Origin: Candidatus Zhuqueibacterota bacterium
GTDB taxonomy: Bacteria > Zhuqueibacterota > Zhuqueibacteria > Thermofontimicrobiales > Thiofontviventaceae
Direction: 5' to 3'
DNA length: 64,000 bases
Assembly: GCA_016931935.1 (NCBI GenBank)
Contig: JAFGDW010000090.1
Coordinates: forward strand, 199 to 64,198
Part shown: one piece after another, positions 7,567 to 56,187 of the stretch
Layout of the letters: each line of letters opens with the position of its first letter
Numbering within the stretch: the first letter of the stretch is position 1
Made by a program: the position numbers and the translations under genes
Notes under the pieces: generated by a model
Databases searched by the model: none
What the model saw: the letters and a program-made list of their open reading frames with translations, nothing else
Told to the model about the DNA's origin: nothing

Positions 7567-7602
7567 TATCAAATGAAATAATTCTCTCATGAGGAGGTAA
7601 AT

Positions 7603-10474: not shown

Positions 10475-10604
10475 TATCGATGACAATCTTAATCCGGTAA
10501 AAAAGCCAAAGGAAAACGGAATTATGAAACTGAATTTAATGTAAATAATTGCTGAAGTTCACTTTTCCACGTTTAAACAATTTAACCAATGAAAGGAATA
10601 TTGT

Positions 10605-11399
10605 ATGCACAAATTAACAACACAAATTTCCTTACTTCTAGTCGCCCTGATGATACTCCCGTTGGTGGCACAGGCAGGAGAAAAAAATGCTAAATCAATC
10701 GACTGTGGCAAATTGCTAAAAGGCGTTGCGCATTTCACGGACAACGATGTTCGCTTCAAAACAAAGGATAGCATTGTCATTTTTATCGATCCAATGTCAG
10801 GCCCTGAAAAAGAAATCATAAAACAATGTAATTTCATAACGCCAGATCTAATTTTGATTACGCATGCCCATAGCGATCATTTCCAAATGGAAATTCTTAA
10901 GGCATATTCAAAAATAAACCCTAAAGTTATTATCGCCGGCCCACCAGATATTGTACAAGTGCTTGCTGATTCAGATATAAATAATACCAAATCCCTGGAA
11001 CCTGGCAAAGACTACTCACTTGCAGATGTAAAGTTTGAAACGGTACCCGCCTATTTCTTACGCGGTGATTCGCATCCGAAAGCGAATGGCTGGATGGGAT
11101 ATATTTTAAAAATCAACAATGCTCGCTATTACGTGACCGGCGATACCGAAGCTATCCCGGAGATGGAATCAATAACAGCAGATGTGCTATTCCCGCTGGT
11201 ATATGGCTGCGGTGGCAATGTTGCGAATGTGGTTAAAATGGCGAAAATAATTAAACCTGCGCTTGTGGTGCCGGTGCATACCGGTGGCAATCCGGAAGCG
11301 ATAAAGAAATGTATCGACGCCATGCCCAAAGGTGTCGCCAGCACATATTTTATTGATGGAAAAATGCTAACTGAAAAAATCCAAACAGCATCTGATTGA
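10605..11399 (+). CDS. Secreted MBL-fold metallo-hydrolase
   Basis: 264 aa; signal peptide; ITHAHSDHF (HxHxDH) motif plus downstream His/Asp ligands. Confidence 0.65.
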   Translation: MHKLTTQISLLLVALMILPLVAQAGEKNAKSIDCGKLLKGVAHFTDNDVRFKTKDSIVIFIDPMSGPEKEIIKQCNFITPDLILITHAHSDHFQMEILKAYSKINPKVIIAGPPDIVQVLADSDINNTKSLEPGKDYSLADVKFETVPAYFLRGDSHPKANGWMGYILKINNARYYVTGDTEAIPEMESITADVLFPLVYGCGGNVANVVKMAKIIKPALVVPVHTGGNPEAIKKCIDAMPKGVASTYFIDGKMLTEKIQTASD

Positions 11400-11425
11400 A
11401 CCATAAACTAATAACTTGAAATAAA

Positions 11426-11467
11426 AATCCCACAGAAACCGTTTGCCAATCCGATTCCTGTGGGATT
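11426..11467. terminator. Candidate bidirectional terminator hairpin between convergent genes (10-bp stem AATCCCACAG/CTGTGGGATT, 22-nt loop)
   Basis: Perfect inverted repeat flanked by A-run (5') and T-rich tract (3'), located between + gene ending 11399 and - gene ending 11525. Confidence 0.45.
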
Positions 11468-11524
11468 CACTCTTAATAATTTATTTAATTGGTTTATCGT
11501 CGTGTTACAAATCTGCCAGCAGCT

Positions 11525-12109
11525 TTACATCGATAGTTTCGCTATTTTTAAAAGTTCCGCATTAAATTGTGCTCCCTGATCCTTCGCATTTTGAACATCT
11601 ACAAAAATTTTCGGTGATGATTCCTGTTCATCGACTACCACAGCAACCCCTTTATTAAAATAACTTTTCGTACCAGAGTATGTAAATATTTTTTCCTGTT
11701 TTGCAACATTGATAACCTGCTGCAAATTCTGATCAGAAATTGAAAAGACATACAACGCAGATACGTTCAAGAGTTTAATTTTTTCTTTTAAATTTTCTGA
11801 TGACGAAACGGGTATGAATGAATACTGAATCGATTTTCCCTTTACTGTCCGGTTGTTGGAAATATAATCATAAAAAATATCATCCAGTTGCTGAATTTTT
11901 TTCTCAATATTTGGGACTTGTTCCGAATATAAAATCCCAATTCGAATTTCACGACTGTTGCTTTCAATGGATTTATTATATCCCATAATTTTGATTAGCA
12001 TATCTGCTTGTTTCTCAATTGGCAATTCGACTGCAGAACTGAATGATGCACTTCCCAACGCGATAATGCCGACACTTAATGCTATCATTTTGCTAAAAAA
12101 TCGTTTCAT
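11525..12109 (-). CDS. Periplasmic hypothetical protein, possibly DUF4154/YfiR-like
   Basis: 194 aa with signal peptide; DMLIKIMGYNKSI...IRIGILY and C-terminal ...AELLKIAKL resemble YfiR-family periplasmic proteins; weak call. Confidence 0.35.
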   Translation of the reverse strand: MKRFFSKMIALSVGIIALGSASFSSAVELPIEKQADMLIKIMGYNKSIESNSREIRIGILYSEQVPNIEKKIQQLDDIFYDYISNNRTVKGKSIQYSFIPVSSSENLKEKIKLLNVSALYVFSISDQNLQQVINVAKQEKIFTYSGTKSYFNKGVAVVVDEQESSPKIFVDVQNAKDQGAQFNAELLKIAKLSM

Positions 12110-12868
12110 AATTCACATCCCTTTTATTAAGCATTTCTGTATTGTATTATTATCACCGTTTCATGCAAAGTATATACCAAAAACTGCCGAAAAATACTAA
12201 CAGATAAAACCATTAGGTATTATTAAAGTTAGCCGGCCTAAGCAAATACACTGCTATTTCAGAAATTTAGAATTTTGATCTTTGCAGCCTATGATTTGAT
12301 GATAATAATCAGATGGCTGATTTCAGCCTGTCACAAATAGTATTATTGTTGTATAAATTTAAATGCGACCAAGCGAATTTGTAAATCATGCACTTTTTTA
12401 TGCAATCGAACGTACTAGTACTAAGCAGCGACAACTTGAAACATATTAATTTCACTTCGTGGACGACCATTAACGTTGCCTGTAAACACTAAATGTGAAG
12501 CTATGAAGATAGGAGAAAATCGACATCGCTGGTTTACTAACTTGCTCAAGGAGAAACAGGTTCATCAGAATATCGACTGTTGGACATGCTTTAAGGATAA
12601 GATGTTGTAGGGAAATTCTTTGCCCGGATAGCTGAAACCAATTTTACAAGCAAGTAATTGGACGTTTAAAGTTATCGCGGAATAATAAACACTATCATGA
12701 AAGCCACAACATAAGCTTACTTGATCCATCCACGGTGTGGGAAACTCCTTAACGTGGATTAGCGTTAGACAATTACTATCTAGTTGAGAAATTACCTAGC
12801 GATTGTCCCGCTGAATTGCACATATTCAAGCGATTAAATGCAATTATTATTTTTAAAGGGAATAATCT

Positions 12869-13477
12869 ATGATCATTAAACATCTCGACAAGATTCCACA
12901 AGTTCATAAAACGGCATACGTGGCACAGTCGGCAACCATATGTGGTGATGTAACCATCGGCAAAAACTCGCGCATCATGCACAACAGCTCAATCGTGGCG
13001 GAAGGTAGCTCTATTGAAATCGGTGATAATTGCATTGTGCTTGAAAATGCGGTCATTCGTAGTACTGCGAAATATTCGACAAGTATATGCAATAACGTAC
13101 TTATTGGCCCGAATGCCCATCTTGTTGGCTGTTCGCTTGAGGAATGTGTATTTATCGCAACCGGCGCAGCAATTTTTCACGGTGCACGGATCGGGTATAA
13201 TTCCGAAGTGCGGATAAACGGCATCGTTCATCTAAAAACATTATTACCGCCCAATTCTATGGTACCGATTAACTGGATTGCGGTTGGCAATCCGGCCCAA
13301 TTGTTTTCACCGGACCAACATGAGCAGTTGTGGGAGATTCAAAAGGAACTAAATTTTCCGCTCTCAGTGTACGGTGTTGATCGACCTGCCACAGGGGAAT
13401 CGAATATGCAGGAGATCACCGAGTACTATAGCAAAATGCTCAGTAGCCATAAAGATGACGAATTTTTGGGTGTATAA
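12869..13477 (+). CDS. Gamma-class carbonic anhydrase / hexapeptide-repeat (LbH) family protein
   Basis: 202 aa; tandem hexapeptide repeats (AYVAQSATICGDVTIGKNSRIMHNSSIVAEGSSIEIGDNCIVLENAVI) with conserved His positions typical of the PaaY/CaiE/gamma-CA family. Confidence 0.65.
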   Translation: MIIKHLDKIPQVHKTAYVAQSATICGDVTIGKNSRIMHNSSIVAEGSSIEIGDNCIVLENAVIRSTAKYSTSICNNVLIGPNAHLVGCSLEECVFIATGAAIFHGARIGYNSEVRINGIVHLKTLLPPNSMVPINWIAVGNPAQLFSPDQHEQLWEIQKELNFPLSVYGVDRPATGESNMQEITEYYSKMLSSHKDDEFLGV

Positions 13478-13584
13478 AGAGGTATCAACTTTCAGATCGT
13501 CACCTGCTGCTAAAAGAATAGTCGTAACGAAGTGGTTTTGAAATTCATGTATTAGAACAGCCTATTTATCAGACCAGGGACCAA

Positions 13585-14304
13585 TTGCCCAATCAATGGA
13601 AGGGAAATATGACATCGATGCTTCAGAGACAAAAGATCCGGGATACTGCGTTTAATAACGGTGTAGATTTATTTGGTATTGCCTCGATTGATCGATTTGT
13701 TCACGCTCCGGCAGGCTTTCATCCGCGGGATATTTATTCCAAAACAGCATCGGTGATTGTATTTGCCATTAGGTTACCGACAGAATCAATGTTCGCAGAA
13801 AGTCCGGTACCTTATACTCATGTTAACTCGCTGGTGACCCAAAAGATGGATATGATTTCCTTTGATATTTCAAGCACGCTGGATAGGGCAGGCATTAAAA
13901 ATGTGCTGATTCCTTCGGATGATCCTTACGAATATTGGGATGCCGGGAATCAACATGGTCAGGCAATTCTATCGATGCGCCATGCCGCAGAGCTCGCTGG
14001 CCTGGGGAAATTGGGACGTAACAATTTGCTTATCAATAAAATTTATGGAAATATGATCCAGATTGGGGCGCTACTAACTAATGTCAAGCTTGAGCCTGAT
14101 CCACTTGCAGATTATGAGGTATGTCCCCCGAAATGCAGAATTTGTCTTAATAGTTGCCCACAGCAGGCTTTAACTGGCGATACAGTCATCCAATCAAAAT
14201 GTCGGCCAATTTCGAACGCAAAAAATGAGAAAGGTTATATCATTAAGAAGTGTTTTGAATGTCGAAAAAAATGTCCTCACGCATTAGGAATACGCAGAAA
14301 GTAA
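13585..14304 (+). CDS. 4Fe-4S cluster-containing protein (QueG/reductive-dehalogenase-like ferredoxin domain)
   Basis: 239 aa; CPPKCRICLNSCP and C...CFECRKKCP cysteine clusters; family assignment uncertain. Confidence 0.4.
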   Translation: MPNQWKGNMTSMLQRQKIRDTAFNNGVDLFGIASIDRFVHAPAGFHPRDIYSKTASVIVFAIRLPTESMFAESPVPYTHVNSLVTQKMDMISFDISSTLDRAGIKNVLIPSDDPYEYWDAGNQHGQAILSMRHAAELAGLGKLGRNNLLINKIYGNMIQIGALLTNVKLEPDPLADYEVCPPKCRICLNSCPQQALTGDTVIQSKCRPISNAKNEKGYIIKKCFECRKKCPHALGIRRK

Positions 14305-14493
14305 AATCCGCATAATTTTGACCACCATCCTACGGGAATCAAAATCCATTCGACAATTTGACCCATGCAACGGGACATATAACACTTTTTTTTATAATCA
14401 GATTATCGCTTATTTAATTTTAATGATTATGTACATATCACAACCCTTGAAACATTTTCTCCATTCTAAATAAATAGCGAAATGGAAACGAAA

Positions 14494-14522
14494 CTGTAGG
14501 CCATCTTTGAGATGGACTACAG
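14494..14522. terminator. Strong hairpin (13-bp stem with 1 mismatch, 3-nt loop: CTGTAGGCCATCT-ttg-AGATGGACTACAG) between convergent genes
   Basis: Inverted repeat read directly; lies between + gene ending 14304 and - gene ending 14575. Confidence 0.5.
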
Positions 14523-14574
14523 CTAATTCTGAAAACACCCACTCTAATAATCAATAGCTGAATAAAGTACGCAA

Positions 14575-17500
14575 TCATTTTTTTAAAGATTTCTGATGCT
14601 GTTGCGAAACGAATGCTTTCGCTTGAGCAGTATTTGATTTTGCGCCTGTTAACGAATTTAGTGTCTTCTTAAACGCAACTGCGAGGCTGCGCATATGTTC
14701 AGCGTTTCCGGCCATTTCGTTAACTGCGGCTGCCGTTTGTTCGGCAGCGGATGCATTTTGTTGAATAATCATATTGACCTGATCGATCGCGATATTTAAA
14801 TGAGCAATTCCATCATTTTGTTCAGCCGAACCATTGGCAACGGTAGATAACATATCATTGATTCTATCCATATGCGATTGAATATCTTGCAAGCTATGGA
14901 TAACTTCCCGGTTCATTTCCACACTTTGATCAGCATCCTGTTTGGTTTCAGCTATGTGAACGGCTGTACTTTTGGCTGCTTCAGCGCTTCTCATTGCCAA
15001 ACTACGAACTTCATCGGCAACCACGCTAAATCCTTTGCCAGCTTCACCTGCTCGTGCGGCTTCGATGGCGGCATTCAACGCAAGCAGATTTGTTTGGAAG
15101 GCAATATCATCGATTGTCTTGATCACCTTTGTTGATTGATCTGCAGATGTCTGAATTTTCAATACAGCCGTTGATAATTTTTCGACACGTTCCAACGCCT
15201 GATGGGCGCGCTCGCGAGTCGACTCTGTCAGGTTCTGGACATCTTTGGAGCTTTTCATATTGGTTTGAGCAGTCGATGAAATGACTTGCAGACTACTGGA
15301 TATTTCTTCAATCGATGACGCCTGGTTGCTGGCGCCATTCGCAATTTGATCACTGGAAGTGGAAATCTGATGTGACCCATTCGCAACGGATTCTGCAAGC
15401 TCGGTCAAATTATGAACCCCCTTTGTCAATTGAACTACCGAAGCGTTCATTTTCGCATAAAGGTCACGAAATCTAGCTTCATTTTCCCGTGCATTTTTCT
15501 CCGCCTGTTCCACCTCAAGCAAATGCTGATTCATTTTTTCATTTGCATGTTCAAGTTCCGCGGCCTGTTTTCCAATCTCTTGAGTCCGCTCGTGAACCTG
15601 TCGTTCAAGTTCCCGTTTATTTGACTCGACACTTTTCATACGCTGTCTATAAATGAAGTAAACATTAGAAATAACGATTGTTATCATAAGAATTCTAAAC
15701 CATGCCGTTTTCCAGAATGGAGGGGCAATACTTATTTTAATTTCTGTACCGGCTTCATTCCAAATACCGTCGTTATTCGAAGCCTTGACACGAAACGTGT
15801 AATTCCCCGGATTTAGATTCGTGTAGGATGCAATTCGTTGTGTACCAACATAATTCCAGTTTTTTTCAAAACCGTCAAGCATGAATGCATATTGATTTTT
15901 TTCGGGAACTACATAATTAAGGGCGGCAAATTCAAAACTAAATACCGTGTGTTTGTACGAGAGTGTCAAATGAGATGTAAGGTTGATATCTTGCTGCAAA
16001 GGAGAATCTTCCGCACCAACTTCCACATCTTTATTGAATAATTGAAATTTTGTAAATACAATCGGTGGTTTAAATGAATTGATCTTAAGTTCTTCCGGCT
16101 TAAATTGGTTAAAACCGTTTGTACCGCCAAAATATAAAGTACCATCACTGCCTTTGCAAAATGAGCGCCGGTTAAACTCATTGCCCTGCAGGCCATCACC
16201 AATGTCATAATTCTTAAAAACGGGATTTTCGGGAAGGGATGTACCATTTTCAAACATTGAAAGGCCTTTGTTTGTACTTATCCAAAGATTTCCGCGATTG
16301 TCTTCCACCACGCCTTTGATCTGATTATTAGGCAGCCCCTGTTCTTCTGAATAGCAGGCAAATTTTTTCGTTTCTCGGTCGAACACGTTCAAGCCGTTTC
16401 CCGTACCGATCCAGAAATTACGTTTGCTGTCTTCATAGAAAACAATGGCCCCATTATAACTGATGCTATTTGCATCACTGGTATCTCTTACGAAATGCGT
16501 AAATTCATTCCTGTCTTTATCGAACATATCCACTGCTGAACTTGTAGAGATCCACAGCTCACCGTAGGACGTTTCATACAAAGCTCGCACCCAGTCATTG
16601 GAAATCGACTTTGGATTGTCCGGATCATTAAGATACTTTTTAAATGTTCCGGATTCATAATCGTACAGATTCAATCCCTGCCCCATGCATCCGACCCACA
16701 AATCACCATCCCGATCTTCAAGAATGGCAAACACATTATTACAACCGATGCTGCGATCGTCGTTATCATCATGCAGAAACCGTGTAAATGTTTTATCTTC
16801 CGGATTGTACAAATTAAGCCCCCCGGCCCAGGTGCCGATCCAGATATTACCGCGACTGTCTTTGTGAAGCGCCCAAATAGCATTAGAGCCAATACTTCGA
16901 GAATTTTTGGGATCATGCGTGAAATGGGTATACGATTTGTTTGATTTATTATAAAGGTTTATTCCGCCTTCAGTCCCAATCCAAAGATCATCCCCGTCTT
17001 CAAGAAAGACATTCACGAAATTATTATTCAGACTGTTCGGATTGCCAGCTTCCTGCTTGAAATGCAGAAATTTTTCGGATAGTCGATTGTAAAAGTTTAT
17101 ACCATCACCAAATGTGCCAACCCATATGCCACCATTCGTATCCTCCCATAACGACTGCACCGAATTATTGGAAAGACTTTGACTATCAAACGGATTAAAC
17201 CGATTATGATAAAAAGTGCAATTATCTTCGCGAAAAGTGTTCAGGTCCAGCATATCCAAACCGCCATTTTCCGCACCTATCCATAGCCAACCATGTCGAT
17301 CTTCCAACAGCGCCAAAATCGCCCCTTCGGTTATTGTTTGTTCGTCCCCATTTTTGTGCACGTATTGCCTGATGGTAACCTGTTCAGGATTTGCAGGTGG
17401 ATAACTTAACAAAATCAAGCCGGCACTATTTGTACCGACCCATAATCGTTTTTTACTGTCTTCAAACAGACTCCGTATTTGACCATCACCAAATCGAGGA

Positions 17501-18141
17501 TCTTTCGTATCGATATTAACAAACTTAAACTTATTATTTACATTCCGAATAAAACACAATCCATCCTGACTGCCAATCCAAATTGTGCCCTTGCTATCTT
17601 TTAAAATTGTATTAATATTATTCGTTAGAATACTGTGTTGATCATTGGCATCATGGGCAAAACGTTGAGAAGCATCGGTTGCCGGATCGAATAAATACAA
17701 TCCATGATAACGGCTCGTAATAAAAAGCTTTCCATCTTCCGTTTCTAAAAAGTGAGTAAGCTGACCTTCCGGCCAACTTTTTTTATGGATGAACTCATCC
17801 CGCTGTCGATCATAAAAATTCAAACCATTTTCAGTGCCAATCCACAAATTGCCATTTTTGTCTTCGTAGATGGATTCTATGGCATTATCGCTTAACGTTT
17901 TCGGATTTTTGGGATTGTGTTTATAGACTTTCAGTGTGTAGCCGTCGTACCTGTTCAATCCATCGAACGTCCCAAACCACATAAATCCGTATTTATCCTG
18001 ACATACTGACCGTATCCAGCTTTGGGACAATCCATCCTGAACCGTGATGTGCCTGAATTTTACCTGAAATGGTTGTGCATAACCGGTTTCAAAACACATA
18101 AAAACAAGTATCGCAGCTAAAATTTTTTTCATCGTCTCCAC
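14575..18141 (-). CDS. Methyl-accepting chemotaxis protein with periplasmic double beta-propeller (Reg_prop repeats) + Y_Y_Y sensor domain, single TM, coiled coil and C-terminal MCP signalling domain
   Basis: 1188 aa; N-terminal 800 aa are a close paralogue (about 60% identity by eye) of the sensor domain of the HK at 51622-56187; TM after [10 protein letters not shown]; C-terminus contains canonical MCP core [41 protein letters not shown]; no HisKA/HATPase/REC. Confidence 0.8.
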
Positions 18142-18165
18142 CCATAATACTATATAAAATTCAAT

Positions 18166-21100
18166 TTATAATACTTTTACGACGACATATTTTGACAGTT
18201 TTACCAGTACTTCTTCTATATTTATCGGCTTGGAAATGTAATCATCCATACCTGCATTCAAAAATTTTTCACGATCTCCCTTCATTGCATGAGCGGTCAT
18301 CGCAATAATCGGGATTTCTTTTTTATCGGAAAGCCGAATTCGTCTGGTTGCCTCAATCCCGTCCATTTTGGGCATCTGAACATCCATGAGAATAAGATCG
18401 AAATGTCGGTCAGCAGCGAATACTAAATCAAGCGCTTCCTGGCCGTCGTTTGCGACCTGCACCCGGTGTCCCCACTTCTTCAGAAGATTTATTGCCACTT
18501 TCTGGTTAATGATATTGTCTTCCGCCAAAAGAATATTCAACGAGCTGTTCACATCTGTATTGGCATGCCCATCACCTGAACCCGCATTAGCCTGATCAAT
18601 CTTACCCAGTGTCTCAAGGATTGCATGTAATAAATTCTGCTGACGGATTGGTTTTTGGATGAAATTTTGAATGGCGATTTCCTGCCGCTGTCCATGATTT
18701 TCATCATGCCCTAATGAACTCATCATAATTATTTTGATGTTGTTCCATTCTTCACGAGCACGTATAGCGCGTGCGACTTCCAGGCCATCCATTTCCGGCA
18801 TTTGATGATCGAGCAAGACCAATGAAAATTGTTTATCATTTGTTATCGCACGACTCAATAATTCCAATGCATGAGCGCCATTAATTGCAACGGTGGGTTT
18901 CAATTTCCACTGCGTGAAAAGATCGCTTACAAACGCGCAATTGGTTTCATTATCATCCACAATTAATATTCGCGTACCAACTAAATGTGAGGCTGGCAAT
19001 TCAACACTTTCGCACCCCTGAAAATTACCAGACGCAAAACAGGCGGTAAAGTAAAATGTACTTCCTTTTCCGATTTCACTCTCAACCCAAATATCGCCCC
19101 CCATCAAGCCAGCAATTTTTTGTGAAATCGTAAGCCCAAGTCCGGTGCCCCCATATTTACGCGTCGTGGAGCTATCAGCCTGAGAAAAGCTTTCAAAGAT
19201 TTTACTTATTTTATCTTGTGGGATACCAATTCCTGTATCAACAATAGCAAATCGAAGCTTCATTTTATCTACTGTTCGCGCTTTCGATTCGCTCACCAAT
19301 TCGACCCGAACAACAATTTCACCCTTTTCTGTAAATTTAATACTGTTTCCAATTAAATTAACAATCACTTGTCGCAATCTATCAGGATCGCCCTTCAAAG
19401 CAGTCGGTACATCCCGTTTAATCCCATAAAGAAGTTCCAGCCCTTTGGATTTTGCCTGAATCGCCAAGCTGGAAATGGCGGATTCAATTACATCGTGTAG
19501 CTTAAAATCGACTTCTTCCAGTTCCATTTTTCCGGCTTCAATCTTCGAAAAATCGAGAATATCATTTAACAATTTGAGTAACGATTCCGCTGATTGTTTG
19601 GCCATATGTAAATAGTCTCGTTGCGTTTTATTATCAGCCATTCCGATAGCCAACTCGGTCATACCGATAACGCCGTTCATCGGCGTTCTGATTTCATGGC
19701 TCATATTGGCTAAAAATTCACTTTTGTATTGATTTGCATCTTCAGCGAGTTTTTTTGCAGCCTGCAATTCACGCTCGAAACGTTTACGTTCGGTGATATC
19801 GCGATTGATACCAACCAATCCCTGCACATCGCCGTTCTGGTTACGCAATTGGATTTTCGAACTCAACACATATACTTTATTGCCGGTCAGGGGTTCAACA
19901 CCGTATTCTTCCTTATCAATGATTGTTTCACCCTGTTTGATGATTTTTATATCATCATTAATGAATTGCTCGGCAATTTCTTTCGGAAAAAAATCCATGT
20001 CCGTCCGCCCTAGCAAATCTTCCTGGCATAACTTCCCCATTTTTCTGATATGCGTTTTATTATTCAGAATAAATCGATTATCTACATCCTTGACAAAAAT
20101 GCTTTCGGGAACAATATCGATGACTGATTTCAATAAATAGCGCTCATTGGCAAGTTCTTTTGTCCGTTCTGATACTTTCTGTTCGAGCGATTTATTTTGC
20201 TGACGAATATTGTATGTTCGGATTTTATAAATAAACGCGATCAATCCGGCAATCACGACAATTACAATTACACGAAACCACCATGTCTGCCACATCGGCG
20301 GGGTAATAACAATGCCTAATGAGGTTTTCCGATCAAACCAGATGCCATCGCCATTGGTTGCTTTTGCCTGAAATTCATAATATCCGGCTGGTAAATTTGT
20401 ATAGGTGACAAATCTGCGCTTTCCGACATAATTCCACTTTTCTTCAAAATTAAGTAATCGGTACGCATATTCACATTTATTGGAGGAATTTAAATTTAAT
20501 GAGACATAGTTGAACGATATAATATTGTCTTTATACGACAGCTCAATCTTCTGCGTTTTTGAAACGACTTCCTTTAGAATCGTTCTGCCATCTTTCATGC
20601 TGCCAACAGGAATAGATGTATTAAATAATTTGACATCTTTAATAATTACCGTGGGGCTGCTATAATCATCAATTATTTCATCGGGATAAAAGGCAGTAAT
20701 GCCATATTCGCCACCAAATAATAATCGACCATCGGCTGTTTTAAAACAGGAACGTTTAAAAAATTGCTGATCCAATAATCCATCATTGACATCGTAATTT
20801 CGAAAAGTCTCGTCATCTGTTGAAAACCGCGTTAAGCCATTATCTGTACTCAGCCATAACTGATTATTGTCATCTTCCAGAATACCCATGATGATATTTG
20901 TGGATAATCCGTTCTTTTCAGTATAAACTGTAAAGTTATCCGATTCGGAATTATATCGATTCAATCCATCACGGGTACCAATCCACAATTTCCCGGATGA
21001 GTCGACAAAAATCGTATAAATAAAATCATTGCTCAGACTTGATTCATCATTGACTTTGTTGTGGTACACTGCAAATAATCCGGAATTTTTGTCGAACCGG

Positions 21101-22665
21101 GCCAATCCATAGGTTGTCGATATCCAAACACTATGCTCATAATCTTCCAAAATCTGTCCGCCCCATTTGCTGGGTATTTTTGTTGTATCGTTAGAATTTC
21201 CTTCATAGTGGGTAAACACATTATTTTTTATATCGAAATAATCCACACCGAAATTTTCAAGCGCAAGCCATAAATTATTATTGTGGTCCACATAAATATC
21301 CCGAACATCATTGCCGGCAATGCTGTTTCTGTTTTTCGGATCGTGCACATAACGAATAAATGAATCACCCGTTTTATTGAACAGATTAAGTCCGTTATCA
21401 TAAGTGGCAATCCAGATACGTCCGGACAAGTCTTCAACAATGGAGTAAATCGGACCAAATCCCAAACTGTGTGGATTTTTCGGATCATGTTCGTAGGTAT
21501 TTATTTTCACACCATCGCTATTAAACACATCAATTCCCCCGGCCATGTAACCTATCCATAGGTTGCTATTTTTGTCGACCAGAATTGTATTGACTTTCTT
21601 TTTGCTTAAACTATTTTTATCAGTCACGTTCCGAATGTATTGCTCAAACGCTTTTTGCTTTAAGTGATAACTAATTCCAAAGTTATCATGACCCGCCCAA
21701 ATATTTCCTTTACCATCCTTGAACACGCATGAAACATGCATGTTCTTAATACCGTTGCTGTTGTATTCGGAATAGGCATATGTCTGAAAAATATTTTTAC
21801 CGATATCATATAATTTGAGGCCTTCGCCGGTTGCCAACCAAATTTTATCCTTGCTATCTTTATAGAAGGAACGGATAAAGTTATATTCATTACTTTTTTG
21901 GATTCGGGTAAATTTTCCGGAGGTCCGATCGTAAATTGATAATCCGTAGCGGACAATGCCGATCAGAATATTTTTATTGCCATCGAAATAGAGCGCGGAA
22001 ATATTATTATCCGGCAGGCTGTTTTTTCTTTCGGGATTATGCTGAAAATGTGTAAACGAATTACTGTGAGTGTCGAAGAAATCAAGACCTGCTGGTGTGC
22101 CAATCCACAGATTATCATCATCATCAATTATCAGCGATTTGATATTGTTATTAATCAGGCTATTTATATTCTCTGAATTTTCAAACAAGGTGAACGTGTT
22201 TGCTCGGCTGTCATATTTATAAAATCCTACGCCATCGGTGGCAATCCAGAGATTATTCTTTTTGTCGTCAACAATGGAAACAATATTTGTATGAAGTTGA
22301 TTTTTCAAATAAGTTGTAAACGAATCCGTTTCACGCTCATATTTGCATAAACCATTGAATGTGCCAATCCACAGTACGCCGTTTTTATCTTCAAATAATG
22401 ATTGAACGTATGAATTGCACAGGCTGGACTGATTATTCGGTTCGGACAAATATACAGCAACGGAATAGCCATCGTATTTATTCAATCCTTTATCTGTTCC
22501 AATCCATAAAAATCCTTCATGATCTTCGAGAATACAATGAATATTATTATTGGAAAGCCCATGTTCCTTGGAAAGATGCTTGAATATGAGTGAACGTGTC
22601 TGTGCATGAAGTGACGGTCCAGCAGCAACCAGGATCATGCATAGTATCAGCATTTTATTTTTCAT
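18166..22665 (-). CDS. Hybrid sensor histidine kinase/response regulator: signal peptide, Reg_prop beta-propellers, Y_Y_Y, TM, PAS, HisKA, HATPase_c, REC, REC; no HTH output
   Basis: 1499 aa; YAYRLLNFEEKWNYV...TPPMWQTWWFR (Y_Y_Y/TM junction); H-box [17 protein letters not shown]; G-boxes DTGIGI, GGTGLGL; two receiver domains (LIVDDN...LLDHQMPEMDG; LLAEDN...LMDVQMPKMDG); 24 bp upstream of the MCP gene. Confidence 0.85.
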   Translation of the reverse strand: MKNKMLILCMILVAAGPSLHAQTRSLIFKHLSKEHGLSNNNIHCILEDHEGFLWIGTDKGLNKYDGYSVAVYLSEPNNQSSLCNSYVQSLFEDKNGVLWIGTFNGLCKYERETDSFTTYLKNQLHTNIVSIVDDKKNNLWIATDGVGFYKYDSRANTFTLFENSENINSLINNNIKSLIIDDDDNLWIGTPAGLDFFDTHSNSFTHFQHNPERKNSLPDNNISALYFDGNKNILIGIVRYGLSIYDRTSGKFTRIQKSNEYNFIRSFYKDSKDKIWLATGEGLKLYDIGKNIFQTYAYSEYNSNGIKNMHVSCVFKDGKGNIWAGHDNFGISYHLKQKAFEQYIRNVTDKNSLSKKKVNTILVDKNSNLWIGYMAGGIDVFNSDGVKINTYEHDPKNPHSLGFGPIYSIVEDLSGRIWIATYDNGLNLFNKTGDSFIRYVHDPKNRNSIAGNDVRDIYVDHNNNLWLALENFGVDYFDIKNNVFTHYEGNSNDTTKIPSKWGGQILEDYEHSVWISTTYGLARFDKNSGLFAVYHNKVNDESSLSNDFIYTIFVDSSGKLWIGTRDGLNRYNSESDNFTVYTEKNGLSTNIIMGILEDDNNQLWLSTDNGLTRFSTDDETFRNYDVNDGLLDQQFFKRSCFKTADGRLLFGGEYGITAFYPDEIIDDYSSPTVIIKDVKLFNTSIPVGSMKDGRTILKEVVSKTQKIELSYKDNIISFNYVSLNLNSSNKCEYAYRLLNFEEKWNYVGKRRFVTYTNLPAGYYEFQAKATNGDGIWFDRKTSLGIVITPPMWQTWWFRVIVIVVIAGLIAFIYKIRTYNIRQQNKSLEQKVSERTKELANERYLLKSVIDIVPESIFVKDVDNRFILNNKTHIRKMGKLCQEDLLGRTDMDFFPKEIAEQFINDDIKIIKQGETIIDKEEYGVEPLTGNKVYVLSSKIQLRNQNGDVQGLVGINRDITERKRFERELQAAKKLAEDANQYKSEFLANMSHEIRTPMNGVIGMTELAIGMADNKTQRDYLHMAKQSAESLLKLLNDILDFSKIEAGKMELEEVDFKLHDVIESAISSLAIQAKSKGLELLYGIKRDVPTALKGDPDRLRQVIVNLIGNSIKFTEKGEIVVRVELVSESKARTVDKMKLRFAIVDTGIGIPQDKISKIFESFSQADSSTTRKYGGTGLGLTISQKIAGLMGGDIWVESEIGKGSTFYFTACFASGNFQGCESVELPASHLVGTRILIVDDNETNCAFVSDLFTQWKLKPTVAINGAHALELLSRAITNDKQFSLVLLDHQMPEMDGLEVARAIRAREEWNNIKIIMMSSLGHDENHGQRQEIAIQNFIQKPIRQQNLLHAILETLGKIDQANAGSGDGHANTDVNSSLNILLAEDNIINQKVAINLLKKWGHRVQVANDGQEALDLVFAADRHFDLILMDVQMPKMDGIEATRRIRLSDKKEIPIIAMTAHAMKGDREKFLNAGMDDYISKPINIEEVLVKLSKYVVVKVL

Positions 22666-51621: not shown

Positions 51622-54600
51622 TCACGTTTTGCTTTCAGTTCCGTTACCTACGATAGCAAATGCAGCAATCTTGCTACGCACTTCCTCCACATCAATTGGC
51701 TTGGCAATGTAATCGTTCATTCCGGCATTTAAAAATGCCTCACGGTCTCCCTTCATTGCATGCGCGGTCATGGCGATAATAGGAATTTCCAGTTTCAAAG
51801 TCTGACGAATCTGCCGGGTTGCTTCAATACCATCGATATTAGGCATCTGTACATCCATAAGAACAAGATCAAAAGAACGCTTACCAAGAATACTAATCGC
51901 CTCCTGGCCATCGTTTGCTACCGTTACTTCGTGCCCCCATTTTTTCAACAGACTAGTTGCCACTTTCTGATTGACAATATTATCTTCGGCCAACAGAATA
52001 TGCAACGACGGCATCTTGTCATCGATAGAAAATGATCTCCCTATGCAATCCAAATCGGTACAGGCTTTGCCCAAAAGCGTTAAAATGGAATACATTAAAT
52101 CCGTTTGCCGGATCGGCTTTTGCAGAAACTCATCGATGCCATCAATCTTGTTTCGCTTCAGATCACTTCGGTCTACAACCGAACTCATCATAATTATTTT
52201 TATGCTGTCCCATTTTGTGTTGGCGCGAACACGCTTTGTAAATTCATAACCATCCATTTCCGGCATTTGAAAATCCAGCAAGATCAGGCTGAATTGTTTT
52301 TCTTCAACTGTTGCCTCGTATAGTTTATTTAATGCTTCCATGCCATTCCAGGCAATCGTTGGCTGAAATCCGTTTGCTTCCATTACGTCGCGCATGATAA
52401 TACAATTGGTATTATTATCGTCGACAATTAATACTCGCATGCCTTCAAGTTCTTTCACACGTCGAGCAAATTTTTCGGATTCCTTTATCTTTCCCGGCTT
52501 AAAATAGGCTGTAAATTGAAAGACACTTCCTTTTCCCAATTCGCTTTCTACCCAAATTTTTCCGCCCATCAAATGAGTGAGCTTTTGGGAGATTGTCAAG
52601 CCCAAACCGGTACCCCCAAATTTTCGTGTAGTAGAATTATCCGCCTGGGAAAAGCTTTCAAAAATTTTATCGAGCTTATCTTCAGGAATACCAATTCCGG
52701 TATCCGAAACTGAGAATTGAAGCCCGATTAATCCATCATGTTGGGTTGCATCCTTTTCGAGTAAAGACACCTTTACAAGAATTTCCCCTTTTTCGGTGAA
52801 CTTGATTGCATTCCCAATCAGGTTAACAATAATTTGACGAAGCCGTCCCGGGTCTCCCATCAATCCCACAGGCACATCATGTTTTAAATCATAAAGCAGT
52901 TCAATCCCTTTGGAATTCGCTTGTATTGCTAACGTTGTAATCGCAGTCTCCATCACCTTGCGAATATCAAAATTAATGATTTCCAGCTCCAATTTTCCGG
53001 CTTCAATTTTGGAAAAATCCAAAATATCATTGAGTAAGTCAAGCAACGATTCCGCTGATTGCTTGACAATTCGCAGATAGTCCTGCTGCTGACGGTTAAG
53101 ATCTGTTGCCAGTGCGAGTTCTGTCATGCCAATAACACCGTTCATCGGTGTACGAATTTCATGACTCATGTTGGCAAGGAACTCGCTTTTACTGCGATTT
53201 GCCGATTCAGCTATCTCCTTGGCAATTTGTAATTCTTCTTCAAATTTTTTACGATCATTAATAAGTCGGCTAACCCCGACGATTCCATCGACCTCCCCTT
53301 TATTATTTTTGAATTGAACTTTTGAAGTCAAAATCCAGTCAATTTCGCCAGTTAAAGGATTTACTCCTTTTTCTTCTTTATTGATGATTGGAATACCGGT
53401 TTTTATTATGTTGATTTCATCTTTATGGTAATCATCCACATGTCCACCGGGGAAAAAATCGGCATCGCTTTTTCCTATCATGTCCTCCTGCCTGGTAATC
53501 CCTACTGATTCCATATGCGCCCGATTATTAAGAATAAACCGTGAGTGCCGATCCTTCACAAAAATCGGGTCAGGCACAAGATCAATAACAGTTTGTAACA
53601 GGTTTTTTTTATCCTCAAGTGCATTATTTGCTGTCAGCAAATCCTTGGTGCGTTCAGCAACTTTTTGTTCAAGCTGTTTATTTTGGATACGAATGTTTCT
53701 GGTTCGTATCTGATACAGTGCAAATATTAATAACATCAATAAATTGAGCACCATCGTTCGAAACCACCACCTGTGCCAGTAAGGCGGCGTTATAATAATT
53801 GTAAGTGAGGCGCCGGTTTCATTCCAGATACCATCATTATTCGATGCTTTCACGCGGAATGTATATGTACCCGGATCAAGATTTGTATATGTCGCATCAT
53901 GCTGATTCCCGACGTAATTCCACTCGGTATCGAATCCCTCCATTTTATAAGCGTATTGGTTGCGTTCGGGAGCTATGTAATTTAAAGCGACAAATTCAAA
54001 CGAGATCACAGAATGCTGGTGGGACAATGTCAGACTACTTGTCGTGACAATGTTTTCCATCAAAGGCGAATTTCCCCCTTTAATTTCCACATCTTTATTG
54101 AAAAGCTGAAACTTTGTAATGACAACCGGAGGTTTGGCCAAATTTATGCGGAGACTTTCCGGATTAAACACATTGAAACCATTCGGGCCGCCAAAATACA
54201 TTTCACCGTCCGCCGCTTTCATGCATGATCGGCGATTGAACTCATTACCTAGCAATCCGTCATCTACGCCGTACACAATAAATTGCGGATTCTTCGGCAC
54301 ATTGGTACCATTAACAAATTTTGCAATTCCCCTGTTAGTGCTGATCCACAAATTGGCATGGTCATCTTCCAGAATGCCTTTTATTTGATTATTTGGCAAT
54401 CCCTGCTCTTCAAAATATCCTCGAAAATCTTTTTTTTCGCGACGATAAACATTTAATCCATTATCGGTGCCAATCCAAAGATTTTTTCGACTGTCTTCAA
54501 AAAAAATAATGGCGGTGCTATGACTAATGCTATTTATATTGCTCGTATCGTGCCTGAAATGTGTAAATGATTCATTTGCAGGATCAAACAGGTCGATCGA

Positions 54601-56187
54601 TGACGTTGTCGATATCCATAGCTCATTATAGCTGTTTTTATAAATCGTCCGAATCCAGTCATTAAAAATGCTTGTGTTATCCGTATCATCGTGTAAAAAT
54701 TGCTTATAGGTTTTTGTCACTTCATTGTAACGGATTAATCCCTGCCCCATGCATGCAAGCCACAGGTTTTTGCCATCTTTCAGGATACTGAAAACATTTT
54801 TGCACGGAAGAGTTTTATTCTGTTCAGAATTGAACCGGATGATTGTGTTATCCTTCCGATCTAGCAAATTCAATCCACCTTCCCACGTTCCAACCCACAA
54901 TTTCTGTTGGTCATCTTTACACAGCGACCAGACTGCGTTCGAGCTCAGCGTGTTCGGATTGTGAGGATCATTAATGAAATGTGCAAATGTCTTATCCCGC
55001 TTGTTGAACAGGTTCAGTCCCCCTTCTGTCCCGATCCATATGGAATCACCATCTTCCAGAAATGCATTGACAAAGTTGTTGCTTAGGCTGGCAGGATTAC
55101 CGGGTTCATGAGAGAAGGAAACAAACTTTTCTGTTAGTTGATTATAGAAATTGATTCCGTTAGCGAAGGTCCCAGCCCACATGCTGCCGTAAGAATCCTG
55201 GTACAATGAATAAACGCTATTGTTTGATAAGCTAAATGGATTTAGCGGATCGTTTCGATAATGATAGAAACAGACATCATTCGAGTTTGAACTTCCGGGT
55301 TCCAGGATGTCCAAACCATTATTTTCAACCCCAATCCATAATCTGCCACCGCTGTCTTCCGATATAGAACGGATTGCTCCGTTGGCAATTGACGATTCAT
55401 CACCATCCCGATGCGCATAGTGAACACATTCGAGTATTTTCGCTGTTTCCGGTTCATATTTTATCAAGCAAAGACCATTGCTATTTGTGCCTACCCATAA
55501 CTTTCCATTCTTATCAGTATGAAGTGAAATTATATGGTTGTCCGTAATTCCAGCGGCATTCATGATATTATTCAATCTTACAAATTTTTGAGTCGACACA
55601 TCAAAGCGATTCAGCCCGTTCGCAGTTCCTACCCAAACATTGTTATTTTTATCAATTACTATATCTTCGACATTATAATTGCTAATTGTGCTTTCATCCG
55701 TGGCATTTGGCACAAATGAAACTGTTTTGTCGTTCTCCGGATTAAATAACAACAGACCATGTGCAGCGGTACCAATTAAAAACCGGCCATCATCCAATTC
55801 AACAATATTCTGCACTCCTTCCTGAGGCCAGCTTGTTTTGTGCGAAAAATTATCATTCTGACGATCGTAGCGGTTCAAACCTGCAAAAGTCGCGATCCAC
55901 AATTGTCCCTTTTTGTCTTCATAAATTGCTTCGATCGTGTTACTTGAAATACTTTTTTTATTACGCGGATTATATTTATAAATTGTAATTGAATAGCCAT
56001 CGTAGCGGTTAAGGCCGTCATTTGTTCCGAACCACATAAAGCCATACGAATCTTCACAAATGGATTTCACCCAGCTCTGTGATAATCCATCCTGAACAGT
56101 AATATGTTTAAATTTTAGAGACAATTGCTCTCCGGACGCTGCATGAGCGACGGGCAGTAACAACAATAGAAATAGTATTTTCTTCAC
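51622..56187 (-). CDS. Hybrid sensor histidine kinase/response regulator (Reg_prop/Y_Y_Y sensor, TM, PAS, HisKA, HATPase_c, REC, REC); sensor domain is the closest paralogue of the MCP at 14575-18141
   Basis: 1521 aa; [16 protein letters not shown].. N-terminus and YHYRNDPLNPFSLSNNSVYSLYQD... region closely match the MCP gene; TPPYWHRWWFR; [17 protein letters not shown]. Confidence 0.85.
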   Translation of the reverse strand: MKKILFLLLLLPVAHAASGEQLSLKFKHITVQDGLSQSWVKSICEDSYGFMWFGTNDGLNRYDGYSITIYKYNPRNKKSISSNTIEAIYEDKKGQLWIATFAGLNRYDRQNDNFSHKTSWPQEGVQNIVELDDGRFLIGTAAHGLLLFNPENDKTVSFVPNATDESTISNYNVEDIVIDKNNNVWVGTANGLNRFDVSTQKFVRLNNIMNAAGITDNHIISLHTDKNGKLWVGTNSNGLCLIKYEPETAKILECVHYAHRDGDESSIANGAIRSISEDSGGRLWIGVENNGLDILEPGSSNSNDVCFYHYRNDPLNPFSLSNNSVYSLYQDSYGSMWAGTFANGINFYNQLTEKFVSFSHEPGNPASLSNNFVNAFLEDGDSIWIGTEGGLNLFNKRDKTFAHFINDPHNPNTLSSNAVWSLCKDDQQKLWVGTWEGGLNLLDRKDNTIIRFNSEQNKTLPCKNVFSILKDGKNLWLACMGQGLIRYNEVTKTYKQFLHDDTDNTSIFNDWIRTIYKNSYNELWISTTSSIDLFDPANESFTHFRHDTSNINSISHSTAIIFFEDSRKNLWIGTDNGLNVYRREKKDFRGYFEEQGLPNNQIKGILEDDHANLWISTNRGIAKFVNGTNVPKNPQFIVYGVDDGLLGNEFNRRSCMKAADGEMYFGGPNGFNVFNPESLRINLAKPPVVITKFQLFNKDVEIKGGNSPLMENIVTTSSLTLSHQHSVISFEFVALNYIAPERNQYAYKMEGFDTEWNYVGNQHDATYTNLDPGTYTFRVKASNNDGIWNETGASLTIIITPPYWHRWWFRTMVLNLLMLLIFALYQIRTRNIRIQNKQLEQKVAERTKDLLTANNALEDKKNLLQTVIDLVPDPIFVKDRHSRFILNNRAHMESVGITRQEDMIGKSDADFFPGGHVDDYHKDEINIIKTGIPIINKEEKGVNPLTGEIDWILTSKVQFKNNKGEVDGIVGVSRLINDRKKFEEELQIAKEIAESANRSKSEFLANMSHEIRTPMNGVIGMTELALATDLNRQQQDYLRIVKQSAESLLDLLNDILDFSKIEAGKLELEIINFDIRKVMETAITTLAIQANSKGIELLYDLKHDVPVGLMGDPGRLRQIIVNLIGNAIKFTEKGEILVKVSLLEKDATQHDGLIGLQFSVSDTGIGIPEDKLDKIFESFSQADNSTTRKFGGTGLGLTISQKLTHLMGGKIWVESELGKGSVFQFTAYFKPGKIKESEKFARRVKELEGMRVLIVDDNNTNCIIMRDVMEANGFQPTIAWNGMEALNKLYEATVEEKQFSLILLDFQMPEMDGYEFTKRVRANTKWDSIKIIMMSSVVDRSDLKRNKIDGIDEFLQKPIRQTDLMYSILTLLGKACTDLDCIGRSFSIDDKMPSLHILLAEDNIVNQKVATSLLKKWGHEVTVANDGQEAISILGKRSFDLVLMDVQMPNIDGIEATRQIRQTLKLEIPIIAMTAHAMKGDREAFLNAGMNDYIAKPIDVEEVRSKIAAFAIVGNGTESKT

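What the first reader, a model, noticed from the sequence alone, without database searches (positions are those of the whole stretch)
14575..18141. Chemoreceptor built on a hybrid-two-component-type propeller/Y_Y_Y sensor: sensor-domain sharing between an MCP and a histidine kinase
The last gene of the array has the ~800-aa periplasmic double-beta-propeller + Y_Y_Y module that otherwise defines Bacteroides-type hybrid two-component sensors (oligosaccharide sensors in B. thetaiotaomicron). It replaces the entire kinase/receiver output with a canonical methyl-accepting chemotaxis signalling domain (…[36 protein letters not shown]…). Its sensor is the closest paralogue (about 60% identity over long stretches by eye) of the sensor of the kinase at 51622-56187, 37 kb away. 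This suggests the same ligand class is routed both to a phosphorelay and to chemotaxis. Reg_prop/Y_Y_Y ligand-binding domains on MCPs are at most rare; this architecture would be a new chemoreceptor class and implies chemotaxis towards glycan-type cues in a T9SS-bearing FCB-group organism.
Basis: partly seen in the sequence, partly recalled or inferred. Interest (0 to 1): 0.75.

Follow-up and report, generated by a model that had tools for sequence, protein, structure and literature searches.

The report
Propeller-sensor chemoreceptor in a KSB1 bacterium
This is an intact chemotaxis-receptor gene whose outside-facing sensor is the large double-propeller module normally found on sugar-sensing kinases; the combination is real and rare, but it is already listed in a chemoreceptor census, recurs in several phyla, and has never been studied experimentally.

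Summary
Window 14575-18141(-) encodes one intact protein of 1185-1188 aa. It has a signal peptide, two 7-bladed Reg_prop propellers, a Y_Y_Y domain, one TM helix, a 72-aa helical linker without HAMP, and a 36-heptad MCP signalling hairpin. The source is a candidate division KSB1 MAG. An independent assembly contains the same gene.

The closest in-window paralogue of the sensor is the hybrid kinase at 51622-56187, at 53% identity rather than ~60%.

The novelty claim does not hold. At least 38 database proteins from several phyla share the architecture. A published census (PMC8547431, Table S2) already lists Reg_prop as 0.052% of chemoreceptor ligand-binding domains.

- The fusions arose repeatedly. 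Sensors sit in 16-22 separate clades, and outputs fall into five length groups (about 30, 36, 38, 40 and 44 heptads).
- The swap boundary is a conserved juxtamembrane helix (E-R-T motif, always 38 residues after the TM start).
- In nine of the ten direct fusions that keep the x-R-T motif, the motif-to-tip distance keeps heptad phase (153/160/181/188, all 6 mod 7). This fits signalling through a continuous coiled coil.

A glycan ligand and a Che pathway in this genome are plausible but untested.

The parts
14575..18132 (-). Whole chemoreceptor gene. NCBI start is ATG 18132 (1185 aa); the alternative GTG 18141 gives 1188 aa. Stop codon at 14575-14577.
   Evidence: An identical intact gene is in an independent Logan assembly.
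18073..18132 (-). N-terminal signal peptide [20 protein letters not shown]. Its hydrophobic core of ~11 residues is too short for a TM helix, so the mature protein is inferred to be single-pass.
   Evidence: translation. In the model, helix 2-13 is followed by a low-confidence stretch at 14-20. Cleavage is inferred, not shown.
17053..18063 (-). Seven-bladed Reg_prop beta-propeller 1. This is the part most diverged from the 51622 kinase paralogue (28-70% per 50 aa).
   Evidence: (28 strands in 7 blades).
16093..17052 (-). Seven-bladed Reg_prop beta-propeller 2.
15718..16077 (-). Y_Y_Y beta-sandwich domain. In BT4663 it acts as a membrane-proximal spacer and dimerisation domain.
   Evidence: Pfam PF07495 E 5e-20; model strands 691-802; role taken from PMC5121618.
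15646..15702 (-). Single transmembrane helix [19 protein letters not shown].
   Evidence: The model helix starts at residue 810.
15430..15645 (-). 72-aa helical linker with no HAMP. Its first ~35 aa form the kinase-type juxtamembrane helix carrying the motif [14 protein letters not shown] (15568-15615). The Arg of E-R-T is always 38 residues after the TM-start Trp. Beyond that motif, homology to the kinases ends.
   Evidence: (no HAMP hit). AlphaFold confidence is low for residues 849-891.
14671..15429 (-). 36-heptad MCP kinase-control hairpin of 253 aa. It aligns without gaps to E. coli Tsr 263-515.
   Evidence: NCBIfam alignments to Tar and Tap of equal length; Foldseek match to 3zx6.
15028..15063 (-). 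Hairpin tip [12 protein letters not shown], the CheA/CheW-contact region in Tsr. It sits in a 39-residue block ([40 protein letters not shown]) that is identical in the paralogue P0007.
15304..15309 (-). Candidate methylation site: EE pair in [10 protein letters not shown], aligned with Tsr E303/E304.
14737..14742 (-). Candidate methylation/deamidation site: EQ pair in [10 protein letters not shown], aligned with Tsr E492/E493.
14578..14670 (-). 31-aa C-terminal tail with no NWETF-type pentapeptide.
18166..22665 (-). Upstream hybrid kinase (Reg_prop, Y_Y_Y, PAS, HisKA, HATPase, 2 x REC). It ends 24-33 nt before the MCP start with no terminator-like site between, so the two genes are probably co-transcribed. 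Sensor identity to the MCP is 32%.
51622..56187 (-). Hybrid kinase whose sensor is the closest in-window paralogue of the MCP sensor (53%).

Best explanation
The gene encodes a functional, single-pass, HAMP-less transmembrane chemoreceptor.

Origin. It was built by joining a kinase-type sensor cassette to a native KSB1 36-heptad MCP output. The cassette is a signal peptide, two 7-bladed propellers, Y_Y_Y, a TM helix and a ~35-aa juxtamembrane helix ending in an E-R-T motif. The recombination boundary lies just after that motif.

Proposed mechanism, by analogy with BT4663.
1. The periplasmic domain dimerises.
2. A ligand, most likely an oligosaccharide, binds the propellers.
3. The Y_Y_Y C-termini move in a scissor-like way.
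4. That movement passes through the two TM helices into a continuous coiled coil.
5. The coiled coil runs without interruption into the MCP N-arm and sets CheA/CheW activity at the hairpin tip.
6. Adaptation would use methylation at the EE (945-946) and EQ (1134-1135) sites.

Shown: the architecture, the fold, the 36H class, the conserved tip and two site motifs, repeated independent fusions, and heptad-phase conservation.

Inferred: dimerisation, the scissor motion, ligand chemistry, coupling to CheA/CheW, and methylation.
For: Architecture and fold.

36H class: gapless alignment to Tsr 263-515, with EE and EQ at the positions of Tsr sites 304 and 493.

Not a decaying gene. The ORF is intact in two assemblies. 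The paralogue P0007 in the same MAG has 49% output identity and a 39-residue identical tip block. The output is 42-50% identical to an ordinary KSB1 MCP, P0147.

Swap boundary. The motif N-x-x-L-E-x-x-V-x-E-R-T-x-E-L, 38 residues after the TM start, is shared by kinases and MCP fusions.

Continuous coiled coil. The distance from the motif Arg to the hairpin tip is 153, 160, 181 or 188 residues in nine of the ten direct fusions that keep the x-R-T motif. All four lengths are 6 mod 7. The model has one helix from 810 to 881.

Repeated fusion. Sensors fall in 16-22 all-MCP clades in 100 bootstraps, and P0007 lies outside the target's sensor clade in 96 of 100. Outputs fall into five length groups: 36, ~38, 40, 44 and ~30 heptads.

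Glycan hint. BT4663 senses heparin/heparan sulphate (PDB entry title) and binds disaccharide ligands on the propeller entry faces (PMC5121618). Relatives lie beside GH30 + SASA, a GH31 fragment, a GDSL esterase, and GH106/MFS/GH94. A GH8 T9SS cargo gene lies 4 kb from the target.

KSB1 clades II and IV carry flagellar and chemotaxis genes (PMC9012183).
Against: - No cheA/W/Y/R/B gene was seen. None is in the window or in any fetched locus, and none is next to any of the five relatives whose neighbourhoods could be retrieved.
- The rest of this MAG could not be searched. It is not a GTDB representative, and its KSB1 clade is unknown.
- Three of the five Tsr methylation positions are not conserved.
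- The linker is modelled with low confidence, pLDDT below 50 at 849-891.
- Ligands are known only for Bacteroides HTCS. CAZyme genes are common in such genomes, so the context evidence is weak.
- One direct fusion (P0273) and the short class break the 6 mod 7 rule.
Confidence: 0.6

Rival explanations
1. The receptor is functional, but its cue is not a soluble glycan. It could sense another molecule, or it could sense indirectly through a periplasmic or outer-membrane partner protein.
For: Ligands for Reg_prop/Y_Y_Y sensors are established only for Bacteroides HTCS. The same sensor family is coupled to many outputs of unknown input: GGDEF, PP2C, PAS-only and plain kinases. PorZ of the T9SS has the same double-propeller build and handles anionic LPS (NCBIfam PorZ hit). 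One relative, P0264, sits among redox and cytochrome genes rather than CAZymes.
Against: The best structural and sequence match is the heparin/heparan-sulphate sensor BT4663. Four of the five relatives whose neighbourhoods were retrieved have carbohydrate-active enzyme or esterase genes within 10 kb, and a GH8 gene lies 4 kb from the target.
Confidence: 0.3
2. The MCP feeds a chemosensory pathway that does not steer flagella. The output could be type IV pili, gliding, or an 'alternative cellular function' such as gene expression or biofilm control.
For: Flagellar and che genes are reported for only some KSB1 clades. The same architecture occurs in a Reichenbachiella MAG; from my own knowledge, that Bacteroidota genus is known for gliding rather than swimming. 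The gene lies in an array of phosphorelay kinases rather than near motility genes.
Against: The 36H module is collinear with E. coli Tsr, Tar and Tap, which are flagellar chemoreceptors. The link between 36H modules and flagellar systems rests on my own knowledge and was not tested here.
Confidence: 0.2
3. The gene is an orphan or decaying fusion in a genome without a Che pathway.
For: No che gene could be found with the data available, and the MAG could not be searched.
Against: The ORF of 1185 aa is intact. A 39-residue tip block is identical between two paralogues that share only 42% sensor identity and 49% output identity. The alignment to Tsr is gapless. Heptad phase is kept after a 7-residue indel between the paralogues. 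Ordinary MCPs exist in KSB1 (P0147).
Confidence: 0.05
4. The gene is an assembly or binning chimera that joins a kinase sensor to an unrelated MCP gene.
For: The source is a metagenome-assembled genome with many near-repeated sensor genes, a setting prone to mis-joins.
Against: An independent Logan assembly of SRR13394437 gives the identical gene with the same neighbours. Twenty-nine full-length proteins from other samples have the same architecture. The junction lies in a conserved, in-phase helix.
Confidence: 0.02

Closest known systems
BT4663 of Bacteroides thetaiotaomicron, a hybrid two-component system that senses heparin/heparan sulphate (PDB 4A2L/4A2M; Lowe et al. 2012 as cited in PMC8534201 and PMC5121618)
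   Same: The periplasmic module is the same: two 7-bladed Reg_prop propellers plus Y_Y_Y followed by a TM helix. Sequence E-value is 3e-143 over residues 3-812. TM-score is 0.87-0.89 with 33% identity. It supplies the presumed dimeric, scissor-type signalling model.
   Different: The output differs. BT4663 carries HisKA, HATPase, REC and HTH_AraC in one chain and regulates transcription. The target has none of these and carries a 36H MCP hairpin instead. The ligand of the target is unknown.
E. coli Tsr/Tar/Tap, 36-heptad methyl-accepting chemotaxis proteins
   Same: The cytoplasmic kinase-control module is collinear without gaps (253 aa against Tsr 263-515). The tip is highly conserved. EE and EQ pairs sit at the positions of Tsr sites 304 and 493.
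   Different: Tsr has a ~150-aa four-helix-bundle sensor, two TM helices, a HAMP domain and an NWETF tail. The target has a ~790-aa propeller sensor, a cleavable signal peptide with a single TM helix (inferred), a 72-aa coiled-coil linker instead of HAMP, and no pentapeptide.
Reg_prop / Y_Y_Y ligand-binding domains in the chemoreceptor census of Sanchis-Lopez et al. 2021 (PMC8547431, Table S2), and database proteins such as P0007, P0028, P0241, P0243 and P0245
   Same: The domain combination is the same: Reg_prop + Y_Y_Y + MCPsignal. All 29 full-length examples are confirmed by Pfam. The type is rare, at 38 LBDs or 0.052% of the census.
   Different: The census only counts the domain and gives no description, ligand or mechanism. 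Members differ in output length group (36, ~38, 40, 44 and ~30 heptads) and in linker (direct, HAMP in 8, PAS in 5). The target belongs to a HAMP-less 36H group so far seen only in sample SRR13394437 (P0001, P0007, P0241, P0244).
The window's own hybrid kinases (for example 51622-56187) and KSB1 HTCS-type proteins P0035/P0036
   Same: They share the sensor lineage (50-53% identity), the TM helix and the juxtamembrane E-R-T helix at fixed spacing.
   Different: The kinases continue into PAS and/or HisKA-HATPase-REC(-REC or -AraC). The target continues into an MCP hairpin.

Membership tests
Methyl-accepting chemotaxis proteins (MCP) | MCPsignal (PF00015) domain above the gathering score | tested here: met
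   119 bits against a cut-off of 34.6, E 2.3e-34.
Methyl-accepting chemotaxis proteins (MCP) | Antiparallel helical hairpin with a conserved tip (E-x-A-R-A-G-E-x-G-x-G-F), collinear with a recognised heptad class | tested here: met
   Gapless 253-aa alignment to Tsr 263-515, giving 36H. Arm lengths are 128 and 125. Foldseek match to 3zx6 has TMt 0.72.
Methyl-accepting chemotaxis proteins (MCP) | Methylation-site Glu/Gln pairs in the adaptation region | tested here: inconclusive
   EE at 945-946 and EQ at 1134-1135 align with Tsr sites 304 and 493. The positions of Tsr 297, 311 and 502 are not E/Q. Methylation itself was not tested.
Methyl-accepting chemotaxis proteins (MCP) | Partner CheA and CheW (and CheR/CheB) encoded in the same genome | not testable with these tools
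   None is in the window or the fetched loci. The MAG is absent from the searchable genome set. The literature reports che and flagellar genes only for KSB1 clades II and IV, and this MAG's clade is unknown.
Methyl-accepting chemotaxis proteins (MCP) | HAMP domain between the TM helix and the signalling domain (typical of transmembrane MCPs, not obligatory) | tested here: not met
   No HAMP hit. A 72-aa helical linker takes its place. Eight of the 29 related fusions do have HAMP.
Bacteroides-type hybrid two-component systems (HTCS) | Periplasmic Reg_prop double propeller plus Y_Y_Y sensor | tested here: met
Bacteroides-type hybrid two-component systems (HTCS) | HisKA, HATPase_c, receiver and HTH_AraC output in the same polypeptide | tested here: not met
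   None of these domains is in the target, so it is not an HTCS. The eight array kinases have HisKA, HATPase and one or two REC domains but no HTH_AraC, so they are hybrid kinases and not HTCS in the strict sense.
Reg_prop-LBD chemoreceptors (rare type counted in PMC8547431 Table S2) | Reg_prop (with or without Y_Y_Y) as the extracytoplasmic domain of a protein with MCPsignal | tested here: met

The most novel reading that the evidence does not exclude
Reg_prop/Y_Y_Y chemoreceptors may be a recurrently invented class of direct oligosaccharide chemoreceptors. They would signal by a scissor-type movement through a single TM helix and a HAMP-less, phase-locked coiled coil. In this KSB1 genome, one sensor lineage would route related glycan cues in parallel to a phosphorelay (51622-56187) and to chemotaxis. 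That would make the protein the largest known chemoreceptor sensor, a natural test of whether an MCP hairpin can be driven without piston motion or HAMP, and a handle on how polysaccharide degraders find their substrates.
Probability: 0.3. Interest if true: 0.65.

Novelty: new member of a known kind. Interest (0 to 1): 0.4.

Why it matters
Receptors for chemotaxis towards polysaccharide breakdown products are largely unknown, although such behaviour matters for carbon turnover by polymer-degrading bacteria. This protein family offers candidates.

It also offers a clean natural experiment in transmembrane signalling. A sensor whose solved homologue works by scissor-like closure is wired directly to a Tsr-collinear 36H hairpin, with no HAMP domain and apparently only one TM helix per subunit. 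The heptad-phase rule found here is testable.

Because the output aligns to Tsr without gaps, the receptor or simple chimeras might be assayed in E. coli.

The finding does not establish a new class. The architecture is already counted in a census and recurs in several phyla.

Tried and rejected
1. Che genes in this genome.
- The species-representative genome scan did not contain this MAG, and none of its 80 loci was an MCP fusion.
- Exact-protein look-ups for P0007, P0147 and P0245 found nothing.
- The supplements of the KSB1 phylogenomics paper contain no MAG from this project (searches for 'Zod', 'JAFG', 'GCA_0169' and 'Zodletone' found nothing), so the clade is unknown.
- I ran no further search on a generic CheA query, because its best 120 hits could not be tied to this MAG.

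2. Ligand-site comparison with BT4663. The Lowe 2012 paper is not held, so contact residues could not be mapped.

3. Recent gene conversion between the MCP and the 51622 kinase. Rejected: identity is patchy at 28-70% per 50 aa, and the longest identical run is 16 aa.

4. Foreign origin of the output, suggested by its higher GC (44% against 40% for the sensor part). I attribute this to the Ala-rich MCP composition. That is an inference, and the output is closest to KSB1 MCPs.

5. The two stand-alone receiver proteins next to relative P0244 are generic REC domains and not specifically CheY.

6. The word-indexed junction search failed to return the query's own protein, so it is not exhaustive. 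The exhaustive representative search was used for counting instead. Only its top 150 are visible, so the count of ~30 clusters is a lower bound.

7. The main catalogue of chemoreceptor sensors (MMBR 2017) is not held.
Full report
**What is there.** Window 14575-18141 (minus strand) is a single uninterrupted ORF. It is identical to NCBI protein JW960_06665 of a candidate division KSB1 MAG, which starts at the ATG at 18132 and is 1185 aa long. Pfam finds many Reg_prop repeats (E 1.8e-62), Y_Y_Y (5e-20) and MCPsignal (2.3e-34), and no HAMP, kinase or receiver domain. An AlphaFold model built on 29 homologues has mean pLDDT 83, with the sensor mostly above 90. It shows two seven-bladed propellers, a beta-sandwich at residues 691-802, and then one long helix starting at residue 810. 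The sensor superposes on the periplasmic domain of the heparin/heparan-sulphate sensor BT4663 (4A2M/4A2L), with TM-score 0.87-0.89 normalised to the target and 33% identity over ~794 columns. The C-terminal part superposes on Tsr. Sequence search gives 4a2l_A at E 3e-143. Feature coordinates were checked by translation.

**Is it real?** A Logan assembly of run SRR13394437 contains the identical gene with the same neighbours. The same MAG has a full-length paralogue, P0007, on another contig. So this is not a mis-join.

**The output module.** The cytoplasmic part aligns to E. coli Tsr 263-515 without a single gap, 253 residues each. The NCBIfam alignments to Tar and Tap are also of equal length. 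It is therefore a 36-heptad module. The tip is highly conserved. An EE pair (945-946) and an EQ pair (1134-1135) sit at the positions of Tsr methylation sites 304 and 493. Three other Tsr sites are not conserved, and there is no C-terminal pentapeptide. A 72-residue predicted helix with no HAMP lies between the TM helix (814-832) and the module. The N-terminus looks like a cleavable signal peptide, so the mature protein probably has one TM helix per subunit (inference).

**The paralogue claim.** The sensor (residues 1-~812) is 52.6-53.5% identical to that of the hybrid kinase at 51622-56187. It is 32-39% identical to the other seven Reg_prop kinases of the array. Identity is patchy, at 28-70% per 50 aa. 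It is lowest in propeller 1 and reaches 60-68% from residue ~550 through Y_Y_Y. The longest identical run is 16 aa, so the split is old and not a recent conversion. All eight array kinases have HisKA, HATPase and one or two receivers but no HTH_AraC. They are hybrid kinases, not HTCS in the Bacteroides sense. True HTCS-type proteins with 50-53% identical sensors do exist in KSB1 (P0035, P0036).

**Novelty.**
- A junction-centred word search found further Y_Y_Y + MCPsignal proteins, one of them from Gemmatimonadaceae.
- An exhaustive phmmer scan of 1.84 billion cluster representatives, classified with my own probes, raised the total to 38 proteins.
- All 29 full-length ones carry Reg_prop, Y_Y_Y and MCPsignal by Pfam. 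Eight also have HAMP and five have PAS.
- Named sources are KSB1, an unclassified bacterium from the same sample (JW948), Reichenbachiella sp., Vicinamibacteria and Gemmatimonadaceae. JGI labels several of them 'methyl-accepting chemotaxis protein/ligand-binding sensor domain-containing protein'. All are MAG or metagenome sequences.
- I found no main-text discussion of this sensor on chemoreceptors.
- Table S2 of Sanchis-Lopez et al. 2021 lists Reg_prop (38 LBDs, 0.052%) and Y_Y_Y (10, 0.014%) among chemoreceptor LBD models. A second supplementary table (file 2) counts 28 Reg_prop LBD clusters.
- The type is therefore rare and uncharacterised but already catalogued. The 'new chemoreceptor class' claim falls.

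**How it arose.** Sensor and output histories disagree.
- The target's sensor is closest to plain kinases (P0002-P0006, 56-58%), to the MCP P0028 (54%) and to the 51622 kinase (53%). It is only 42% identical to the sensor of its genomic sibling P0007.
- Its output is 49% identical to P0007's and 42% to that of an ordinary KSB1 MCP (P0147). It is only 23-26% identical to P0028's.
- In NJ trees of 263 sensors, the MCP-linked ones fall into ~20 separate clades. In 100 bootstraps of a 67-taxon subset there were 16-22 such clades. P0007 lay outside the target's clade in 96 of them, and target and P0007 never shared an all-MCP clade.
- The outputs fall into five length groups: 36 heptads (target, P0007, P0241, P0244), about 38, 40, 44, and a short group of about 30.
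- The propeller cassette has therefore been joined to MCP outputs many times.
- The boundary is visible. Kinases and MCP fusions share a juxtamembrane motif (N-x-x-L-E-x-x-V-x-E-R-T-x-E-L) whose Arg is always 38 residues after the Trp that opens the TM segment. Similarity to the kinases ends just after it.

**How it probably works.** BT4663-type sensors are dimers. They bind disaccharide ligands on the propeller entry faces and use Y_Y_Y as a dimerising spacer. Ligand binding is reported to close the C-termini like scissor blades (PMC5121618 and PMC8534201, both citing Lowe et al. 2012). Here that movement would have to reach the MCP hairpin with no HAMP domain.

Evidence for a rigid, continuous coiled coil comes from the direct fusions (no HAMP, no PAS). 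Ten of them keep the x-R-T form of the motif. In nine of these ten, the distance from the motif Arg to the hairpin tip is 153 (P0241, P0244), 160 (P0028, P0243, P0247, P0251, P0311), 181 (target) or 188 (P0007). All four lengths equal 6 modulo 7. The tenth, P0273, is out of phase at 147. The four-member short class, whose motif reads x-A-T, is at 129, which is 3 modulo 7. The model has one uninterrupted helix from 810 to 881, but confidence in the linker is low. Coupling to CheA/CheW and methylation are inferred from conservation only.

**Ligand and pathway.** Context gives weak support for glycans.
- P0028 lies next to GH30 and a SASA esterase.
- P0241 lies next to a GH31 fragment.
- P0243 overlaps a GDSL esterase gene and lies near beta-helix T9SS cargo.
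- P0244 lies between GH106, an isomerase-like gene and an MFS transporter on one side, and two receivers, a Reg_prop kinase, a hybrid kinase and GH94 on the other.
- The target lies 4 kb from a GH8 T9SS cargo gene.
- P0264 has no such neighbours.

No che gene was found near any of them, in the window or in any fetched locus. The MAG itself could not be searched. The literature reports flagellar and chemotaxis genes in KSB1 clades II and IV (PMC9012183), and this MAG's clade is unknown.

**Verdict.** Sensor sharing between kinases and an MCP is real, and it is a general, repeated evolutionary pattern. The architecture is not new to databases or to the chemoreceptor census. Glycan chemotaxis and parallel routing of one ligand remain hypotheses.

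I score it as a moderately interesting new member of a rare, catalogued but unstudied receptor type.

Noticed in passing
window 18166-60796 (-): Eight tandem, same-strand genes encode 1249-1525-aa hybrid kinases. Each has Reg_prop, Y_Y_Y, usually PAS, HisKA, HATPase and one or two REC domains. None has a DNA-binding or Hpt domain. Their sensors are 32-53% identical to the MCP sensor. This is an unusually dense paralogue array whose downstream partners are unknown.
   Followed up: partly
window 41775-44534 (-), stop at 43380-43382: A dCache_1 + HAMP ORF (43380-44534) and a HisKA-HATPase-REC-REC ORF (41775-43316) are in the same frame. A single TAA separates them (...[35 protein letters not shown]...). 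This is one sensor kinase gene interrupted by an in-frame stop: a pseudogene, a sequencing error or a split gene. An ABC_sub_bind gene lies just upstream at 44942-45964.
   Followed up: partly
window 3410-10474 (+): Three consecutive genes carry the T9SS C-terminal sorting domain (Por_Secre_tail). One is an SBBP/NHL beta-propeller protein, one an FG-GAP plus metallo-beta-lactamase-fold protein, and one a GH8 glycoside hydrolase with PD40 repeats.
   Followed up: no
window 652-2148 (+): A BlaR1-type M56 peptidase domain is fused to an M23 peptidase domain in one 498-aa protein.
   Followed up: no
L087 (GCA_016930535.1, JAFGGN010000105.1) 3214-21013: In a second genome from the same sample, the propeller-MCP P0244 sits in a carbohydrate-type cluster. 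The gene order is GH106, xylose-isomerase-like, MFS transporter, MCP, two stand-alone receivers, a Reg_prop/Y_Y_Y kinase, an REC-HK-REC kinase, and GH94. The MCP is again paired with a propeller kinase.
   Followed up: partly
proteins P0272, P0278, P0292, P0300 and P0273: Four propeller-MCP fusions have a short output of about 30 heptads (arms 105/106) that I could not assign to a named MCP class. Their motif-to-tip distance is 129, which is 3 mod 7. P0273 is 147, which is 0 mod 7. Both break the 6 mod 7 rule seen in the other direct fusions.
   Followed up: no
The word-indexed homology search with the 497-aa junction query did not return the query's own protein (P0001) or P0007 and P0028. The exhaustive search found all three at the top. 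Counts from the indexed search should not be treated as complete.
   Followed up: yes
proteins P0245 and P0277 (Reichenbachiella sp. MAG): A Bacteroidota (Cytophagales) MAG encodes two 44-heptad propeller-MCPs with HAMP. From my own knowledge, that genus is known for gliding rather than flagellar motility. This raises the question of which chemosensory pathway these receptors feed.
   Followed up: no
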